DNA from: a virus
Taxonomy: Duplodnaviria; Heunggongvirae; Uroviricota; Caudoviricetes
Direction: 5' to 3' (one strand)
DNA: 7,739 bases
Virus record (IMG/VR): IMGVR_UViG_2698536337_000010
Within the stretch, counting starts at the first letter, position 1. The number at the start of each line of letters is the position of its first letter. Positions 1-7,739 of the stretch are shown here, in pieces. Both the position numbers and the translations under genes were made by a program. The notes under the pieces were generated by a model that searched no databases, was not told the DNA's origin, and saw only the letters and a program-made list of their open reading frames with translations.

Positions 1-787
<787 letters not shown>

Positions 788-883: not shown

Positions 884-3064
884 TCATTCTTCCTCTGGAT
901 AGCTTGAACTTAAGAGCATATCCTGCGTGAACTGGTCATTAGCTGATTGATTGAAAGTAAAGAAAGATGGTTCATCTGGTCGAACGACAACTTGACCACC
1001 AAGTGAAACTTTCACTGGCTCCTGAATACGCTTACTCAAAGCACTAATTTCATCCCTCAGACCCTGAATATCTGCACTCGTTAATGCTGAATCTTGCTTA
1101 ATGTTGTTTAACTCTGGATGATTGAATCTTGCAATATTCATTGTGGCATTGTTAAACAATTCACCCATTGAACTAAAAATTCTACTCCATCCTTCGTTAA
1201 TCATATTCGGTTTATTAGGGTCACCAGAATACACGGGATTAAAGTCACTACCCACACCTACCCCAGACGGATGCATATTAGCGTTTTTGACTACTTCCTG
1301 ATTCATAAAATCCAGTGCTTTCTTCAATGCATATAAACCAAGAGTGACGCCTCTGATTTGTGGAATCATTGAAGCTAATGCTAACGCTGTTTCATAACCG
1401 TCATCAGCATAACCAATTGCAAGAGCACTACCTACACCACCAGCTACACCTTTCAGTTTTCCACCACCTTTACCAGTAGCTACCTGACCAGCCACCTGAT
1501 TAGCTCTTGTACCTAACGTTGTGATTGCTCTTGTCAGGTTCATAACCCCTGTAGTAGCACTGAATAGCGTCTTTGCAGATAACGCTATAGCAAGACCTTT
1601 GACGAAGTTGATAAAACCATCACCGACTTCATCAAGTAGTTTTCGTTTAGTGTCATCAAGGCTGTAATAGAACTTCTTAGTCTGTAAAATCCAGCCTTCA
1701 ATGGTGTTATTGAATACGCGAATATCATCTACACCAGCTTTAAGCATGTCGATAAGTCCACCGATAGCATCACCAGCGATAGAAGAACTCATCCCCATTT
1801 CACTAAGCAGGTTACTCAGGCTGGATAAGAAGCCGTTTAGCTCATCCTGTGAACCTGAGAAGATTTTCACCATCGTATCATCCCAATTGTTTGCTAACTT
1901 ACCTAAAGCTGTCTGAGTGCTCTTAGTGACTTCAGCCCAGCCACCCGCTTTATCAATCATCAAGCCCATCTGTTTAGCGACTTTAGGGAGAGTATCAGCG
2001 GAAAGTACCTTCCCGTTTTTCATGGCTGCATCAAGCTCTGTAGCAGTCATACCCAATGCTTCAGCGAATAGCTTAAATGCACCAGCCATACGGTCACCTA
2101 ACTGCCCACGTAATTCCTCAGCCTGAATCTTGCCCTTGCTCGCCATCTGCTCAAATGCTCTCAAAATGCCGTTTAGCTCATCGTTAGAAAGCCCCATTAA
2201 GCGACTCATAGCCGTTGCATTACCAAATAGCTCCTGTGTCTGTTCCTGTGACATAGAACCCTGAGCACCTGCTGCAAACTTAGCGTAGCTTGATAGCCCT
2301 TCAGAGATATTAAGACCTGTCTTGTCTGCTAAATTTCGAATAAATACCTCAGCTTCAGATGCTTTATCACCAAGTACAAACTTAGCGGCTCTCTGTGCGG
2401 AATCTCGTTTAAGACCTGCATTCATAATGGCCTTGTAAGCGTTAAGAGCACCCATCACAGAGTAAAATGCACCAGATAATTTAATCGCATTGCTTGCAAG
2501 ATTATTAAATGCGTCGCTTGTATTGTTAATGCTGGCGGTCTTTGTCTGTGACCTGAGTTTATTCAACGTTTCACGAAGAGATTGATTTAATTTTGCAAGT
2601 TCAGCGTTAAACTTTTCACTTCCAATATTACCAGCCTTACCGCTTAAGCTGTAATACTGTGCTTTAAACATTTTAGCCATCAGCGGATTAATATCACCAA
2701 GCTTAGACATATTCACGCTATGCGCTGCTGTGATTGCTCTGTTTCCGCTAATTCGTGGTTGCCTTGATTGTTTTGGAGGATTAACAGTGTCATTAAATCT
2801 GGTGGCAAACTGAAATGCTTTTGTGCTTCTTGCTCTCTGCTCAATCTTGTCAAAGGTCTTATTAAACTTCCTTTCAAGCTGCCCTAAAGAACTTGTCAGA
2901 TTGCTGTCAAGTTGCTTGGTATCGACCTTAAACGCTCTATTCAAATTGCGTTCAATTCTTTGTGCTGACTGCAAAGCTGCCTTTTCAACTCTTTGCAAGC
3001 CCTTAATAACGTTTTCACTGAAACTAAGTTCAACGATAAAACTATCAACTGTGAATTTGCTCAT
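884..3064 (-). CDS. Phage tail tape-measure protein (726 aa)
   Basis: ATG at 3064 with SD AGAGGTGA 7 nt upstream. Coiled-coil-like N-terminal third; central segment GKIQAEELRGQLGDRMAGAFKLFAEALGMTATELDAAMKNGKVLSADTLPKVAKQMG matches the conserved tape-measure domain as I recall it; Gly-rich hydrophobic segment GKGGGKLKGVAGGVGSALAIGYADDGYETALALASMIP is typical of TMPs. No Walker motifs. Confidence 0.8.
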   Translation of the reverse strand: MSKFTVDSFIVELSFSENVIKGLQRVEKAALQSAQRIERNLNRAFKVDTKQLDSNLTSSLGQLERKFNKTFDKIEQRARSTKAFQFATRFNDTVNPPKQSRQPRISGNRAITAAHSVNMSKLGDINPLMAKMFKAQYYSLSGKAGNIGSEKFNAELAKLNQSLRETLNKLRSQTKTASINNTSDAFNNLASNAIKLSGAFYSVMGALNAYKAIMNAGLKRDSAQRAAKFVLGDKASEAEVFIRNLADKTGLNISEGLSSYAKFAAGAQGSMSQEQTQELFGNATAMSRLMGLSNDELNGILRAFEQMASKGKIQAEELRGQLGDRMAGAFKLFAEALGMTATELDAAMKNGKVLSADTLPKVAKQMGLMIDKAGGWAEVTKSTQTALGKLANNWDDTMVKIFSGSQDELNGFLSSLSNLLSEMGMSSSIAGDAIGGLIDMLKAGVDDIRVFNNTIEGWILQTKKFYYSLDDTKRKLLDEVGDGFINFVKGLAIALSAKTLFSATTGVMNLTRAITTLGTRANQVAGQVATGKGGGKLKGVAGGVGSALAIGYADDGYETALALASMIPQIRGVTLGLYALKKALDFMNQEVVKNANMHPSGVGVGSDFNPVYSGDPNKPNMINEGWSRIFSSMGELFNNATMNIARFNHPELNNIKQDSALTSADIQGLRDEISALSKRIQEPVKVSLGGQVVVRPDEPSFFTFNQSANDQFTQDMLLSSSYPEEE

Positions 3065-4104: not shown

Positions 4105-4279
4105 TGCTTTTCCTCTTCTAAGCGGAAGTGTTTCAGTTTTTAAAAAGCACACCTGACAGCCTATCTAAACTTAGAAGAGACTTAAAAGGCGGTTTGCCAA
4201 GTATGCTTTTTAAAAGCTGAATAGCCCTAGATAATTTCTTATAAAGGGCCATTCATAAGGTGAAGAAATTAAAACATCT

Positions 4280-4301
4280 AAAGGATTCAAAAAGGATTCA
4301 A
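4280..4301. repeat. Tandem direct repeat 2 x 11 bp (AAAGGATTCAA AAAGGATTCAA) in a 350-bp non-coding region
   Basis: Exact duplication read directly from the sequence. Nearby inverted repeats ATGACCT/AGGTCAT (4328-4334 / 4351-4357) and ATCATT/AATGAT (4391-4396 / 4404-4409). Confidence 0.6.
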
Positions 4302-4424
4302 ACGAATGAACAAGAGTACTTTTCGAGATGACCTCTCAGACTAACCTGAAAGGTCATGTAGCGAAAAGCATTGCACCTTTCAGAATAACTATCATTGATG
4401 TAGAATGATTAATAGTTTAATTCA

Positions 4425-4441
4425 GGAAGAGTTGCTCTTCC
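4425..4441 (-). terminator. Weak candidate hairpin downstream of the 25-aa ORF (GGAAGAG-ttg-CTCTTCC)
   Basis: Perfect 7-bp inverted repeat with a 3-nt loop, followed on the minus strand by the A/U-rich stretch UGAAUUAAACUAUUA. The short loop and interrupted U-tract make this weak. Confidence 0.2.
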
Positions 4442-4502
4442 CTATTACCATCATCTCATGCTTAAGGTTATTTGTCAACAGCTTTTTAACAGATTGGTAA
4501 CA

Positions 4503-4580
4503 TCAATTCTTATTTACCGTATTACCTACCCAGCAACCAACAAATAACCCTAAAGTCATCCAGAGAATAACGAGTGTCAT
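4503..4580 (-). CDS. Possible 25-aa hydrophobic micro-peptide (MTLVILWMTLGLFVGCWVGNTVNKN), translationally coupled to the upstream 101-aa ORF
   Basis: Not in the ORF track (too short). ATG at 4580 overlaps the TAA of the 101-aa ORF (TAATG). SD GAGGTG lies 5 nt upstream inside the upstream gene. About 18 contiguous hydrophobic residues, enough for one transmembrane helix. Confidence 0.35.
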   Translation of the reverse strand: MTLVILWMTLGLFVGCWVGNTVNKN

Positions 4581-5895: not shown

Positions 5896-6072
5896 ATGCA
5901 TGATTTTTTCACAGCAATTATTGAATCTCATCGTTTTAGCTCGTTGGGCTTTGCGGTATTTATTGTGCTATTGGTGTTTTGCGTTATGAATCGAGTCATT
6001 ACAAAAAAGACAAAGCTTACAATTCGACTTAAACTTCTTCGTGTTGAGATAGAGATTTCAGTAAATAAATAG
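5896..6072 (+). CDS. Small single-pass membrane protein (58 aa), the only plus-strand gene in the window
   Basis: Track ORF 5866..6072 starts at a GTG too close to the predicted transcript start; ATG 5896 has a proper SD. Sequence MHDFFTAIIESHRFSSLGFAVFIVLLVFCVMNRVITKKTKLTIRLKLLRVEIEISVNK has one roughly 18-residue hydrophobic helix followed by a basic tail. Its 3' end overlaps the convergent minus-strand gene by 15 bp. Confidence 0.5.
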   Translation: MHDFFTAIIESHRFSSLGFAVFIVLLVFCVMNRVITKKTKLTIRLKLLRVEIEISVNK

Positions 6073-6456
6073 CTGGTGGACTGAATCCCATAAATCGTAA
6101 TGATACAGCACCGCAAACTTCAAAGCGTCAATCTTTAAATCTGTCACATCATCGACGAAATAATAATCCCTCCCTTCTTTCTTCGGTCGAATCCGNNNNN
6201 NNNNNNNNNNNNNNNNNNNNNNNNNNNNNNNNNNNNNNNNNNNNNNNNNNNNNNNNNNNNNNNNNNNNNNNNNNNNNNNNNNNNNNNNNNNNNNNNNNNN
6301 NNNNNNNNNNNNNNNNNNNNNNNNNNNNNNNNNNNNNNNNNNNNNNNNNNNNNNNNNNNNNNNNNNNNNNNNNNTCATCAAGTAACCTTCACGAGAAATG
6401 CTGTAACGTCTGAGTAAATAGTCACGGTATTTTCTCTCGCCATTATAAGTTTTCAT
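6058..6456 (-). CDS. Hypothetical protein interrupted by an assembly gap, in the position a lambda P-like partner gene would occupy
   Basis: ATG at 6456 overlaps the TAA of the replication gene (TAATG), using the GGAGGA inside the upstream gene's last codons as SD. Only 27 N-terminal and 45 C-terminal residues are real sequence. Frame continuity across the N run is not evidence the two pieces are one gene. Confidence 0.35.
   Translation of the reverse strand: MKTYNGERKYRDYLLRRYSISREGYLMXXXXXXXXXXXXXXXXXXXXXXXXXXXXXXXXXXXXXXXXXXXXXXXXXXXXXXXXXXXXRIRPKKEGRDYYFVDDVTDLKIDALKFAVLYHYDLWDSVHQLFIY
6196..6374. other. Assembly or scaffold gap (179 N)
   Basis: Uninterrupted run of n characters. Confidence 0.99.
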
Positions 6457-7409
6457 TAAAACATTCCTCCACCATAAACACGTCTGACTTTAACTTTTTC
6501 TTTCTTTGGCTCGGTGTGAGTTTTCTTTTTTGGTGTAAAAGTAAAATCATCGTCACTATCATCAAAGTCATCGAGGTCACTAACCTTGTTCTTTAGCTTC
6601 GCATTTCTGAATCTTTCTTTAATTTCTGCTTTACGCTGTTCACGTTTCAATTCCTTTTCAGGGTCTTCTTCATCATCAAGGTCAACATCCGGTAATTCAT
6701 CATCAGTGGCGGGGCACTGTGTGTTTTTATGGTCACTACTAGCAATCACATCAGAGATTTTATCTTCCTTTTTAACGACCTCTTTAGCAGCTTCACTATC
6801 AAGGTCATCTAAGTCAGATGTTTTAACAGTCTCTTTAATAGCCTCTTCAATACCAAGAGAATCACATTCATGTGAATCACAGAGCGAAGCTCCCTTCTTA
6901 AAATATTCTTCTTCAAAGTCATCTTCTTTATTGTTATTAATAAGTTCTTTCTTGTTATTACTGTTATTATACGTGTCAAAGATTTTGACTGACTGAGTAA
7001 AAAATTTTGACTCAGTGGGTAAAGAATTTTGACTCAGTGGGTCATCTTTCTTGACTGACTGAGTAACTTTAGACTCCAGCTTTGCCTTTCTGGCTTCCTT
7101 AGCTGTAAGCTCTGTTAAAACCTCCGGTACTTCATCAAGTGAATAAACTTTAATAACACACTGATTGCTTGCAACGTTAGTTTTCTTGATTAAACCATGT
7201 GCCTCAAGTTGTTTCATACATGCAATCACGGATGTTCTTGTGATTCCAGCATACTGACCAAGATGAGCATATGAAGGGGTATAATATTGCCCCTTATCGT
7301 GATAAAACTTTTGTTCATTCAACATGACAGTGTAAATAATACGGTCGGCAGCTTTAACGCCATTAGTCATCTGATAAATACGGTCATCAAACATGTGGAA
7401 TTTTTCCAT
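6456..7409 (-). CDS. Replication initiator (lambda O / replisome-organiser-like, 317 aa): N-terminal helix-turn-helix domain plus a long acidic low-complexity C-terminal region
   Basis: ATG at 7409 with SD AAAGGAAAA (the track's 7466 start is a TTG lying inside a terminator hairpin). N-terminal about 100 aa contain an HTH-like segment (YAHLGQYAGITRTSVIACMKQLEAHGLIKK). The gene contains an iteron array and AT-rich tract. C-terminal about 200 aa are D/E/K-rich with repeated SDLDD-like motifs. Confidence 0.75.
   Translation of the reverse strand: MEKFHMFDDRIYQMTNGVKAADRIIYTVMLNEQKFYHDKGQYYTPSYAHLGQYAGITRTSVIACMKQLEAHGLIKKTNVASNQCVIKVYSLDEVPEVLTELTAKEARKAKLESKVTQSVKKDDPLSQNSLPTESKFFTQSVKIFDTYNNSNNKKELINNNKEDDFEEEYFKKGASLCDSHECDSLGIEEAIKETVKTSDLDDLDSEAAKEVVKKEDKISDVIASSDHKNTQCPATDDELPDVDLDDEEDPEKELKREQRKAEIKERFRNAKLKNKVSDLDDFDDSDDDFTFTPKKKTHTEPKKEKVKVRRVYGGGMF
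6983..7070. repeat. Four 22-bp phased iterons (origin-like) inside the replication initiator gene, flanked by an AT-rich tract (about 6900-6982)
   Basis: TTGACT cores at 6985, 7007, 7029 and 7051, exactly 22 bp apart. Units are TTTTGACTGACTGAGTAAAAAA / TTTTGACTCAGTGGGTAAAGAA / TTTTGACTCAGTGGGTCATCTT / TCTTGACTGACTGAGTAACTTT, an A-B-B-A arrangement in which A and B contain mutually inverted ACTGAGT / ACTCAGT cores. Confidence 0.7.
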
Positions 7410-7423
7410 TATATTTTCCTTTT

Positions 7424-7470
7424 TAAAAATAAAACAAAGAAAGGGCTGACCACGTATAGTGACCAACCCC
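7424..7470 (-). terminator. Intrinsic-terminator-like hairpin plus U-tract immediately upstream of the replication gene (tR1-like position)
   Basis: Minus RNA: GGGUUGGUCAC-uauac-GUGGUCAGCCC (11 bp including 3 G-U pairs) followed by UUUCUUUGUUUUAUUUUU, ending about 15 nt before the SD of the replication gene. The G-U pairs become C-A mismatches on the plus strand, so the element is minus-strand specific. Confidence 0.5.
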
Positions 7471-7479
7471 AGAGGGAGT

Positions 7480-7739
7480 GAATTAATTAGAAGATGGACT
7501 GATAAAGGAACTCAGAAGCCTGAGCGATTACGCGAGTATTAACAGCAAAAGGAAAAGCCTTGATTGAATAAGAGGCCGTGAAAATCTGTCAATACCCTGA
7601 CGCCTCCCAACGTTGTAACCTCTTAATGTTCTGAGTTCTTTTATCACCCCATATAAAAACTATAACAGATGTGATTATAAATTGCAACAATTATTTCACA
7701 GAATAATTACTGATTGGTCATTTATTGTTCACAGGGATA
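7480..7739. promoter_or_regulatory. Non-coding AT-rich region at the right edge with candidate promoter hexamers and direct repeats (early regulatory region, truncated by the window)
   Basis: No ORF of plausible size on either strand. Minus strand has a perfect TATAAT (plus 7674-7679) with a poor -35, and a perfect TTGACA (plus 7587-7592) with a poor -10 (TATTCA). Direct repeats TTATTTCACAG / TTATTGTTCACAG lie 33 bp apart (TTCACAG at 7695-7701 and 7728-7734). Confidence 0.3.

What the first reader, a model, noticed from the sequence alone, without database searches (positions are those of the whole stretch)
6900..7070. Replication origin embedded in the initiator gene: four 22-bp phased iterons plus AT-rich tract
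TTGACT cores recur at exactly 22-bp intervals (two helical turns) in an A-B-B-A arrangement, with an AT-rich tract on the transcription-downstream side. This mirrors the lambda O gene and its internal origin. The iterons fall in the linker between the HTH domain and the acidic tail.
Basis: partly seen in the sequence, partly recalled or inferred. Interest (0 to 1): 0.5.

Follow-up and report, generated by a model that had tools for sequence, protein, structure and literature searches.

The report
Replication origin inside its initiator gene
Four evenly spaced DNA repeats and an adjoining AT-rich stretch inside a DNA-binding protein gene of a small E. coli/Shigella island look like a replication origin embedded in its own initiator gene, a layout known from phage lambda and Gram-positive RepA_N plasmids but here in an apparently undescribed island that may be a phage satellite.

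Summary
Four 22-bp units lie at 6975-7062, with TTGACT cores exactly 22 bp apart, and 0 of 300 simulated sequences gave such phasing. Next to them is the lowest-GC stretch of the window, 6896-6974 at 21.5% GC. Both lie inside a 317-aa winged-helix gene (7409->6456, minus strand), at codons 116-172.

The real repeat unit is a 15-bp half-palindrome, GTCAAA-N3-TTTGAC. E. coli homologues fall into three N-terminal-domain types. Each type has its own four half-palindromic repeats, 22-23 bp apart, at the same codons, followed by its own AT-rich tract. The C-terminal halves recombine independently of this module. Because 22-23 bp is not a multiple of three, the same DNA repeat is read in different frames, so selection acts on the DNA. 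Gain or loss of one unit has produced frameshifted pseudogenes.

I rate it a new member of a known kind.

In passing: the gene sits on an ~11-12-kb island with a serine recombinase and tail genes related to Felixounavirus, so the island may be an undescribed phage satellite.

The parts
6456..7409 (-). Initiator gene, 317 aa. It has an N-terminal winged-helix domain, a disordered linker and an acidic C-terminal part.
   Evidence: ORF and translation. PHROG replication-initiation families match residues 9-165. AlphaFold model. Identical proteins are named only as helix-turn-helix proteins in Shigella sonnei and E. coli.
7050..7409 (-). Coding region of the N-terminal DNA-binding domain (codons 1-120), with a RepA_N/DnaD-NTD-like winged-helix fold. 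It is the presumed iteron reader.
7041..7062 (-). Iteron 1 (nearest the promoter). Core at 7041-7055 reads GTCAAGAAAGATGAC on the coding strand. It is the most degenerate copy.
7019..7040 (-). Iteron 2. Core at 7019-7033 reads GTCAAAATTCTTTAC on the coding strand.
6997..7018 (-). Iteron 3. Core at 6997-7011 reads GTCAAAATTTTTTAC on the coding strand.
6975..6996 (-). Iteron 4. Core at 6975-6989 reads GTCAAAATCTTTGAC, a perfect 6-3-6 palindrome that abuts the AT-rich tract.
6896..6974 (.). AT-rich tract (21.5% GC; 53% T on the + strand), the presumed DNA-unwinding element. It contains TAATAACAG-type 9-mers, which are expanded by 18 bp in one homologue.
   Evidence: lowest-GC 79-mer of the window; the gene's GC minimum is at the same place in all three types. 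(L013 has +18 bp).
6678..7037 (-). Coding region of the predicted disordered linker (residues 125-244). It overlaps iterons 2-4 and the AT-rich tract.
   Evidence: pLDDT is below 50 for residues 125-244. Identity between types in this segment is 3-34%.
6456..6704 (-). Coding region of the C-terminal module (residues 236-317): a predicted helix at 250-275 and an acidic/aromatic motif, DLDDFDDSDDDFTF. It recombines independently of the N-terminal domain/iteron module and is the presumed replisome-recruiting part.
7410..7687 (-). Promoter-like site (TTGCAA-17-TATAGT, 7687-7659), followed by a ~250-nt structured leader with a terminator-like hairpin (7470-7442) just before the ribosome-binding site. 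Transcription from here would run through the iterons.
   Evidence: (z -4.25).
6058..6456 (-). Downstream ORF whose start overlaps the initiator's stop codon. It is ~96 aa in homologues and partly masked here by Ns at 6196-6374. Function unknown; no helicase-loader signature.
   Evidence: No Pfam or PADLOC hit.

Best explanation
The segment 6896-7062 is the vegetative replication origin of a small integrative island, embedded in the gene of the initiator that recognises it.

Inferred mechanism: dimers of the N-terminal winged-helix domain bind the four half-palindromic iterons (GTCAAA-N3-TTTGAC). The iterons are 22 bp apart, about two helical turns, so they lie on roughly the same face of the DNA. 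The resulting nucleoprotein complex bends the DNA and destabilises the adjoining 79-bp AT-rich tract, which melts. The separately inherited acidic C-terminal module then recruits the replication machinery, which may belong to the host or to a helper phage.

The origin DNA also encodes the tail of the N-terminal domain and a disordered linker that tolerates almost any amino-acid sequence. This is why cis-acting DNA can be laid over coding sequence here. The N-terminal domain, the iterons and the AT-rich tract are inherited as one specificity module. At least three such modules circulate in E. coli.

Shown here: the anatomy, its statistical significance, its conservation and co-variation across relatives, and the fold and homology of the protein. 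Inferred: binding, melting, recruitment, and the fact of replication itself.
For: (1) Phasing is far beyond chance. Four units lie exactly 22 bp apart, none of 300 simulations gave such a pattern, and this is the top tandem repeat in the window.

(2) The architecture is conserved while the sequence is replaced. I read 14 gene copies: the window plus 13 E. coli loci. They fall into three N-terminal types:
- T1: window, L001, L005, L013, L014. Iteron core GTCAAAnnnTTTGAC.
- T2: L002, L004, L007, L009, L010. Iteron core GTGACAAAATGTCAC.
- T3: L003, L008, L011, L012. Iteron core TAACCAGAATTTGGTTA.
All intact genes have four repeats, 22-23 bp apart, starting near codon 116. The gene's GC minimum (17-20% over 60 nt) follows the last repeat directly.

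(3) The iterons co-vary with the N-terminal domain. That domain is 33-42% identical between types and 99% within types, and the iteron-coded segment follows it. The C-terminal module does not: window versus L009 is 33% in the N-terminal domain but 84% in the C-terminal module, while L009 versus L004 is 99% and 60%.

(4) Selection acts on the DNA, not the peptide. Periods of 22-23 bp put identical DNA in different reading frames. In T3, the same repeat encodes TKNWL, PEFGY and NQNLV. In T1, the inner repeats encode PLSQNS and PTESKF.

(5) Two distant homologues have the same layout: phased half-palindromes inside the gene, then an AT-rich stretch. They are P0140 (35% identical, L015) and P0146 (L017).

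(7) The layout matches characterised systems. pSK41 Rep is 319 aa; its N-terminal domain (1-120) binds four Rep boxes centrally within rep, its linker (121-199) is encoded by the ori, and its C-terminal domain recruits DnaG (PMC5703833). [quoted passage not shown] Lambda's iterons lie at codons 117-144 of O.

(8) The linker is predicted disordered over residues 125-244.
Against: - There is no experimental evidence for binding or replication.
- No homologue was found on any PLSDB plasmid or any INPHARED phage. Autonomous replication driven by this family has therefore never been observed.
- All copies found are chromosomal and many are degraded.
- The curated Pfam models RepA_N and Phage_rep_O do not match, and direct profile comparison with lambda O finds nothing.
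- No helicase, primase or loader gene is recognisable in the island.
- In the closest characterised relative, PLE, the origin is in a non-coding region rather than in repA (PMC7145576).
- The same repeats could serve, in addition or instead, in autoregulation.
Confidence: 0.8

Rival explanations
1. The repeats are operator or handcuffing sites. The protein binds them to control its own expression or copy number, for example as a transcription roadblock inside its own gene. The true origin lies elsewhere, for example in the 430-bp non-coding gap at 4153-4579 or in the ~1.1-kb non-coding stretch beyond the methylase gene, as in PLE, where the ori is non-coding.
For: PLE RepA, the closest characterised relative, uses a non-coding ori (PMC7145576). 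The island has sizeable non-coding stretches, one with a small tandem repeat at 4280-4301. Iterons in plasmids are known to have dual roles in origin function and in control (general knowledge).
Against: No further copy of the half-palindrome exists elsewhere in the window. The array is always paired with the gene's GC minimum, in all three types and in distant homologues; that is an origin feature, not an operator feature. The layout of four boxes centrally within rep is the functional ori in RepA_N plasmids (PMC5703833) and in lambda.
Confidence: 0.08
2. The gene encodes a packaging-specificity or small-terminase-like protein, or a partition protein. The repeats would then be its pac site or centromere, embedded in its own gene as pac sites are in some terS genes.
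For: pac sites inside small-terminase genes, and repeated centromere sites bound by helix-turn-helix proteins, are known arrangements (general knowledge). The island lacks a recognisable terminase.
Against: The best matches by fold and by sequence are replication initiators: PLE RepA, RepA_N and DnaD-NTD. The PHROG matches are replication-initiation families. No oligomeric TerS core is predicted, since residues 125-244 are disordered. No ParA-like partner gene is present. An adjoining AT-rich melting tract is not a pac or parS feature.
Confidence: 0.05
3. The repeats have no function. They would be replication-slippage duplications in a tolerant, low-complexity linker, or simply reflect a repeated peptide.
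For: The linker is disordered and poorly conserved. Copy number does change by slippage: L003 has +23 bp, L010 -23 bp and L014 -22 bp.
Against: Periods of 22-23 bp are out of frame, so the repeats are not peptide repeats. Three unrelated repeat sequences each keep four copies, internal dyad symmetry, the same spacing, the same codon position and a flanking AT-rich tract. The one-unit copy-number changes seen gave frameshifted genes, two of them annotated as pseudogenes, and all intact genes keep four copies.
Confidence: 0.02

Closest known systems
RepA_N-family theta replicons of Gram-positive plasmids (pSK41 and pTZ2162 Rep/RepA)
   Same: - Protein size and layout are nearly the same: 317 versus 319 aa, an N-terminal winged-helix domain of ~120 aa, a central linker encoded by the origin DNA, and a separately evolving C-terminal domain.
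- Four binding boxes lie centrally within the rep gene.
[quoted passage not shown]
- N-terminal domain plus ori can be swapped as a module, as in the pPR9/pSK41 chimera (PMC5703833, PMC7145576).
- The predicted fold matches.
   Different: - There is no match to the Pfam RepA_N model, and sequence identity to the solved structures is only 11-13%.
- The host is a gamma-proteobacterium.
- The carrier is an integrated ~11-12-kb island with a large serine recombinase, not a plasmid; no plasmid homologue was found.
- The C-terminal domain is unrelated.
- Control by an antisense RNAI has not been shown here.
RepA of the Vibrio cholerae phage satellite PLE (PDB 4RO3)
   Same: - It too is carried on an island integrated by a large serine recombinase in a gamma-proteobacterium.
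- PLE RepA binds semi-palindromic iterons and drives replication only during infection by its helper, a virulent myophage (PMC7145576).
   Different: - The PLE origin lies in a non-coding region about 1 kb upstream of repA, not inside the gene.
- PLE is ~18 kb.
- Apart from the recombinase type and the initiator's N-terminal domain, I found no evidence that the two islands share genes, and I did not compare the remaining genes with PLE.
- Dependence on a helper phage is unproven here.
Phage lambda O protein and ori-lambda (lambdoid O-type initiators)
   Same: - Four iterons lie inside the initiator gene at almost the same codons: 117-144 in lambda and 116-145 here.
- Spacing is 20-24 bp in lambda and 22 bp here.
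- Each iteron has dyad symmetry.
- An AT-rich tract lies immediately downstream in the direction of transcription.
- The N-terminal domain sets origin specificity and is exchanged as a module among relatives.
- Both proteins match the O-like families phrog_678, phrog_345 and phrog_391.
   Different: - Direct profile comparison with lambda O finds no similarity, and there is no Pfam Phage_rep_O match.
- The C-terminal domain is unrelated.
- No P-like helicase loader follows the gene; the downstream gene encodes ~96 aa of unknown function.
- The carrier is not a lambdoid phage.
Iteron plasmids with Rep_3-type initiators (R6K pi, F RepE, pSC101 RepA, RK2 TrfA)
   Same: Direct repeats are phased at about 22 bp, next to an AT-rich unwinding element, and are read by a winged-helix initiator (general knowledge; PMC4980987).
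   Different: In those plasmids the iterons lie outside the rep gene, the iterons are not palindromic, DnaA boxes are usual (none here), and the initiator fold family differs (two winged-helix domains). No Rep_3 match was found.

Membership tests
RepA_N replicons | The protein matches the curated Pfam RepA_N model (PF06970) | tested here: not met
   The Pfam scan at E<=1 lists HTH_Crp_2, DnaD_N (E 0.0049, below cutoff) and other HTH models, but not RepA_N.
RepA_N replicons | The N-terminal domain has the RepA_N/DnaD-NTD winged-helix fold | tested here: met
   [not shown]
RepA_N replicons | The origin, about four Rep boxes, lies centrally within the rep coding sequence, and the ori DNA encodes a linker | tested here: met
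   Four iterons lie at codons 116-145 of 317, and the AT-rich tract lies at codons 146-172. Residues 125-244 are predicted disordered. The reference description is in PMC5703833. Origin function itself has not been shown.
RepA_N replicons | [quoted passage not shown] | tested here: met
   T1 reads GTCAAAATCTTTGAC, T2 GTGACAAAATGTCAC and T3 TAACCAGAATTTGGTTA. The criterion is taken from PMC7145576.
RepA_N replicons | The C-terminal domain recruits host primase or another replisome component | not testable with these tools
   Only a conserved helix (250-275) and an acidic/aromatic motif are seen.
PLE RepA-like initiators | Detectable sequence and structural homology to the PLE RepA N-terminal domain (4RO3) | tested here: met
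   [not shown]
PLE RepA-like initiators | Carried by a phage satellite that replicates only when a helper phage infects | not testable with these tools
   The context is suggestive: a large serine recombinase, tail genes related to Felixounavirus, and no head or terminase genes.
Lambda O-type initiators (Phage_rep_O) | Sequence membership: a Pfam Phage_rep_O match or direct homology to lambda O | tested here: not met
   No Pfam hit. hhalign against lambda O gives probability 0.3%. The only link is indirect, through shared PHROG matches (phrog_678/345/391).
Lambda O-type initiators (Phage_rep_O) | Four dyad-symmetric iterons inside the gene, followed by an AT-rich tract | tested here: met
Lambda O-type initiators (Phage_rep_O) | The C-terminal domain pairs with a P-type helicase loader encoded just downstream | tested here: not met
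   The downstream gene encodes ~96 aa with no Pfam or PADLOC match. The window's copy of it is partly masked and was not scanned; the PHROG scan of the window's other ORFs also found no loader.
Rep_3 iteron-plasmid initiators | A Rep_3 (PF01051) domain, with iterons and DnaA boxes outside the rep gene | tested here: not met
   No Rep_3 hit. No DnaA box lies near the array. The iterons lie inside the gene.

The most novel reading that the evidence does not exclude
The origin-initiator module belongs to an undescribed family of ~11-12-kb E. coli/Shigella phage satellites. The family's gene order is large serine recombinase, Dit-like tail protein, tape measure, small ORFs, PLE-RepA-like initiator, Dam methylase. 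On this reading the satellites exploit virulent Felixounavirus (FelixO1-like) myophages, as PLE exploits ICP1 in Vibrio cholerae. The embedded origin would fire only on helper infection, using the helper's replisome. The three N-terminal-domain/iteron types would be distinct replication-specificity (incompatibility) groups.
Probability: 0.4. Interest if true: 0.8.

Novelty: new member of a known kind. Interest (0 to 1): 0.5.

Why it matters
An origin laid over the coding sequence of its own initiator is a classic arrangement, known from lambda O and RepA_N plasmids. This locus shows the same solution in a third setting: a chromosomal island of E. coli/Shigella whose initiator is most like that of the Vibrio satellite PLE.

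The three natural pairs of N-terminal domain and iterons form a ready-made specificity series. They differ in sequence but share the same architecture and have exchangeable C-terminal modules. They could be used to test how this initiator fold reads DNA, and how cis-acting DNA and coding sequence constrain each other. Gain or loss of a single 22-23-bp unit destroys the gene, which is visible in natural pseudogenes.

The module also gives a handle for asking whether these islands replicate on their own or only during infection by FelixO1-like phages. An answer would extend PLE-type satellite biology to E. coli.

If the island proves to be an inert remnant, this is simply one more lambda/RepA_N-style embedded origin.

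Tried and rejected
- **INPHARED phages.** Megablast of the region and tblastn of the initiator found no match, so the gene is not from a deposited phage.
- **PLSDB plasmids.** tblastn found no match.
- **Public contig collections.** The search for related loci gave nothing usable on genome contigs or viral contigs. The 9-sequence alignment was too divergent to search with. The 4-sequence alignment and the single proteins P0140 and P0142 gave only false candidates.
- **Direct comparison with lambda O.** The profile comparison showed no similarity.
- **Pfam.** Only sub-threshold HTH and DnaD_N hits.
- **PDB with the thin 4-sequence profile.** Only a weak hit to 4ro3. The 9-sequence profile made that hit significant.
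- **Rfam on the whole window.** Nothing at gathering thresholds.
- **DnaA boxes.** None near the array.
- **Short motif search.** TTTGACTSA with one mismatch is not enriched window-wide, with 6 found against 6.2 expected. The signal is the phasing and clustering, not the motif count.
- **PADLOC and Pfam on the small neighbouring ORFs.** Nothing, except the methylase scored as an orphan methyltransferase.
- **Literature.** Searches for this island (yecE, mdtG, serine recombinase, Felixounavirus, satellite, RepA_N in E. coli) found no description.
- **Peptide-repeat explanation.** Considered and rejected because the 22-23-bp periods are out of frame.
- **Chance.** Considered and rejected on the simulations.
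Full report
**What is in the window**

All recognisable genes run on the minus strand. They are a 726-aa tail tape-measure gene (884-3064; PHROG 4036, E 4e-93), several small ORFs with no family match, a run of masked Ns (6196-6374), and a 317-aa gene at 7409->6456. The finding lies inside this last gene. Identical or nearly identical proteins occur in Shigella sonnei and E. coli and are named only 'helix-turn-helix domain-containing protein'.

**Checking the observation**

- Reading the sequence and the repeat finder (family D2) show four 22-bp units starting at 6975, 6997, 7019 and 7041.
- The TTGACT cores start at 6985, 7007, 7029 and 7051, exactly 22 bp apart.
- Tandem Repeats Finder gives this array the highest score in the window (95).
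- In 300 Markov simulations of the window, no 6-mer recurred four times at any fixed period of 8-59 bp. In the real sequence this array is the only case.
- A plain motif count is not enriched. The signal is the phasing.
- The AT-rich tract 6896-6974 is 21.5% GC, against 36.6% for the gene. It is the lowest-GC 79-mer in the window.
- The tract lies downstream of the repeats in the direction of transcription.

**Anatomy of the unit**

The part shared by the four units is a 15-bp half-palindrome, GTCAAA-N3-TTTGAC. On the coding strand, from the promoter-proximal end, the cores read:

| Iteron | Core (coding strand) | + strand position |
|---|---|---|
| 1 | GTCAAGAAAGATGAC | 7041-7055 |
| 2 | GTCAAAATTCTTTAC | 7019-7033 |
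| 3 | GTCAAAATTTTTTAC | 6997-7011 |
| 4 | GTCAAAATCTTTGAC | 6975-6989 |

Iteron 4, next to the AT-rich tract, is a perfect 6-3-6 palindrome. Iteron 1 is the most degenerate. No other good copy of the half-palindrome occurs in the window. The A/B distinction lies mostly in the 7-bp spacers.

The region is present in 152 of 5,426 complete E. coli genomes and is always chromosomal. I read 13 loci. Together with the window, the genes fall into three N-terminal types:

| Type | Loci | Iteron core |
|---|---|---|
| T1 | window, L001, L005, L013, L014 | GTCAAAnnnTTTGAC |
| T2 | L002, L004, L007, L009, L010 | GTGACAAAATGTCAC |
| T3 | L003, L008, L011, L012 | TAACCAGAATTTGGTTA |

- T2 and T3 have no TTGACT repeats. 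At the same place in the gene they carry their own phased half-palindromes.
- Every intact gene has four repeats, 22-23 bp apart, starting near codon 116.
- In T2 and T3, as in T1, the promoter-proximal copy is the most degenerate.
- In all three types the gene's GC minimum (17-20% over 60 nt) directly follows the last repeat.

Segment identities show which parts are inherited together:

- The N-terminal domain is 33-42% identical between types and 99% within types.
- The segments encoded by the iterons and by the AT-rich tract follow the N-terminal domain.
- The C-terminal module does not follow it. Window versus L009 is 33% in the N-terminal domain but 84% in the C-terminal module. L009 versus L004 is 99% and 60%.

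So the N-terminal domain, the iterons and the AT-rich tract are one inherited module, and the C-terminal part is another. This is what is expected if the N-terminal domain reads the repeats.

Two distant relatives have the same layout:

- In P0140 (35% identical, locus L015), three 23-24-bp units containing GTGAGTCCTGAAGACAC sit inside the gene and are followed by an AT-rich stretch.
- In P0146 (locus L017), about 2.5 units of 23 bp containing GTGCATTTGCTGCAC are likewise followed by an AT-rich stretch.

**DNA-level, not protein-level, selection**

Because 22 and 23 are not multiples of three, the same DNA repeat is translated in different frames:

- In T3, one repeat encodes TKNWL, PEFGY and NQNLV.
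- In T1, the two inner repeats encode PLSQNS and PTESKF.

A repeated peptide therefore cannot explain the conservation. Three gene copies differ from intact genes of their own type by exactly one unit: L003 (+23 bp), L010 (-23 bp) and L014 (-22 bp). All three are frameshifted. L010 and L014 are annotated as pseudogenes, and L003 is annotated as two separate ORFs. One T1 gene has an in-frame +18-bp expansion of a 9-mer in the AT-rich tract.

**The protein**

- PHROGs place residues 9-165 in 'replication initiation' families (phrog_8102 and phrog_428, E about 2e-10) and in O-like families (phrog_678 at E 4e-7, phrog_345 at E 1e-5).
- Lambda O matches phrog_678, phrog_345 and phrog_391 as well. 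Direct profile comparison with lambda O shows nothing, and Pfam gives only sub-threshold HTH and DnaD_N hits.
- An AlphaFold model built from nine family members is confident for residues ~1-120: a winged helix followed by a long helix at 103-120. It predicts disorder for residues 125-244 and a helix at 250-275.
- The iterons (codons 116-145) therefore start at the end of the N-terminal domain and run into the disordered linker. The AT-rich tract (codons 146-172) lies wholly within the linker.
- The best Foldseek matches in the PDB are the RepA_N plasmid initiators 4pql, 4pta, 4pt7 and 5kbj, and 4ro3.
- 4RO3 is the N-terminal domain of RepA of the Vibrio cholerae satellite PLE. That protein has been shown experimentally to be an iteron-binding initiator of the RepA_N family (PMC7145576).
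- With the nine-member profile, 4ro3 is also reached by sequence (E 7.8e-5).

**Comparison with known systems**

- pSK41 Rep is 319 aa. [quoted passage not shown] The C-terminal domain is genus-specific and binds DnaG. A natural chimera (pPR9) has exchanged the N-terminal domain together with the origin (PMC5703833).

All of these features are matched here. In lambda the four annotated iterons lie at 39034-39118, which is codons 117-144 of O. They are spaced 20, 24 and 23 bp apart and are followed by an AT-rich stretch. The differences from each system are listed in the membership table.

**Most likely mechanism**

This is inferred. Dimers of the N-terminal domain occupy the four phased half-palindromes and bend the DNA, the adjoining AT-rich tract melts, and the C-terminal module brings in replisome components. 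A conserved promoter-like site (7687-7659) would send transcription through the origin. No DnaA box is nearby. I put the probability that this segment is the island's origin, read by its own gene product, at about 0.8.

Rivals:

- operator or handcuffing sites only, with the origin elsewhere (0.08);
- a pac site or centromere (0.05);
- non-functional slippage repeats (0.02).

**Context, noticed in passing**

- The gene sits on an ~11-12-kb insert with conserved gene order: large serine recombinase, Dit-like tail protein, tape measure, six to eight small unknown ORFs, the initiator, and in most copies a Dam-type methylase.
- The insert is found in yecE (L005, L020), in mdtG (L001, with IS insertions), between wrbA and ymdF (L021), and as a degraded copy beside lafU (L002).
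- There are no head or terminase genes.
- The Dit-like protein is ~83% identical over its length to a protein of virulent Felixounavirus myophages. Its first ~190 codons are 97% identical at the protein level and 93% at the DNA level. In phage VpaE1 that gene directly follows the tape-measure gene, the same order as in the island.
- The island's tape measure is of similar length (726 versus 742 aa). It is ~29% identical overall and 77% identical over the first 47 residues.
- A 58-nt non-coding stretch upstream of the methylase gene is 88% identical to a divergent intergenic region of VpaE1.
- Literature searches found no description of such an island.

Together with the PLE-like initiator and the serine recombinase, this suggests a satellite of FelixO1-like phages. 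That remains a hypothesis.

**Verdict**

As an origin it is a new member of a known kind (lambda O and RepA_N-type embedded origins). Interest is moderate for the origin itself. It would be higher if the island proves to be a new family of E. coli phage satellites.

Noticed in passing
whole window; L005 11937-23132; L020 2641-14873; L021 ~2899-14400; L001 ~8170-23530: The initiator gene lies on an ~11-12-kb insert with conserved gene order: large serine recombinase, Dit-like tail protein, tape measure, small unknown ORFs, initiator, and in most copies a Dam-type methylase. The insert occurs at four or more chromosomal sites (yecE, mdtG, wrbA/ymdF, beside lafU). It has no head or terminase genes and no match in INPHARED or PLSDB for the initiator. 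It looks like an undescribed mobile element, possibly a phage satellite.
   Followed up: partly
L005 13543-14316 and 14474-16522 (window 884-3064 for the tape measure) versus VpaE1 L018 42021-45049: The island's Dit-like protein is ~83% identical to ORF066 of Felixounavirus VpaE1 and its relatives (97% aa and 93% nt over the first ~190 codons). Its tape measure is ~29% identical over the full length (77% over the first 47 aa). Gene order matches the phage, tape measure then ORF066. This points to FelixO1-like virulent myophages as possible helpers.
   Followed up: partly
L005 22074-22131 (outside the window, 60-120 bp upstream of the methylase gene) versus VpaE1 L018 23361-23416: A 58-nt non-coding stretch containing GATATC inverted repeats is 88% identical to the divergent intergenic region between VpaE1 ORF043c and ORF044. 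It may be a helper-phage promoter or operator copied by the island.
   Followed up: partly
window 7410-7690, minus strand: A promoter-like site (TTGCAA-17-TATAGT) is conserved in all three types. It is followed by a ~250-nt leader that folds much better than shuffled sequence (z -4.25). The leader ends in a terminator-like hairpin (7470-7442) with a T-run just before the ribosome-binding site. T2 and T3 have a different sequence there, and the consensus fold also places a hairpin at this position. This may be an attenuator or an antisense-RNA target, as in pSK41 rep control.
   Followed up: partly
L003 2110-2200; L010 (coding nt ~370-400); L014 (aligned to window 7019-7040): Natural frameshifted initiator genes, two of them annotated as pseudogenes, that differ from intact genes of their type by gain (+23 bp) or loss (-23, -22 bp) of exactly one iteron. 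In L009, iteron 2 matches iteron 1, which suggests gene conversion between repeats.
   Followed up: yes
window 6196-6374: A run of 179 masked bases (N) lies inside the small ORF whose start overlaps the initiator's stop codon. In homologues this ORF encodes ~96 aa with no Pfam or PADLOC match.
   Followed up: partly
window 4153-4579: A 430-bp non-coding gap contains two exact tandem copies of AAAGGATTCAA (4280-4301) and several inverted repeats, including 27-nt arms at 4132-4158 and 4195-4221. Function unknown; it could be a regulatory region or a second cis-acting site.
   Followed up: no
window 6456-6560 (residues ~283-317); P0140 C-terminus: A conserved acidic/aromatic motif lies near the C-terminus (DLDDFDDSDDDFTF). 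The distant homologue P0140 ends in ...DELPAYEADVAF. This resembles the acidic-aromatic tail of SSB and may be a protein-recruitment motif.
   Followed up: no
window 1-748: Downstream of the tape-measure gene only a 57-aa ORF (575-748) matches the start of a 265-position PHROG profile (phrog_3721). By position it corresponds to the Dit-like gene, which seems to be frameshifted or truncated in this copy.
   Followed up: no
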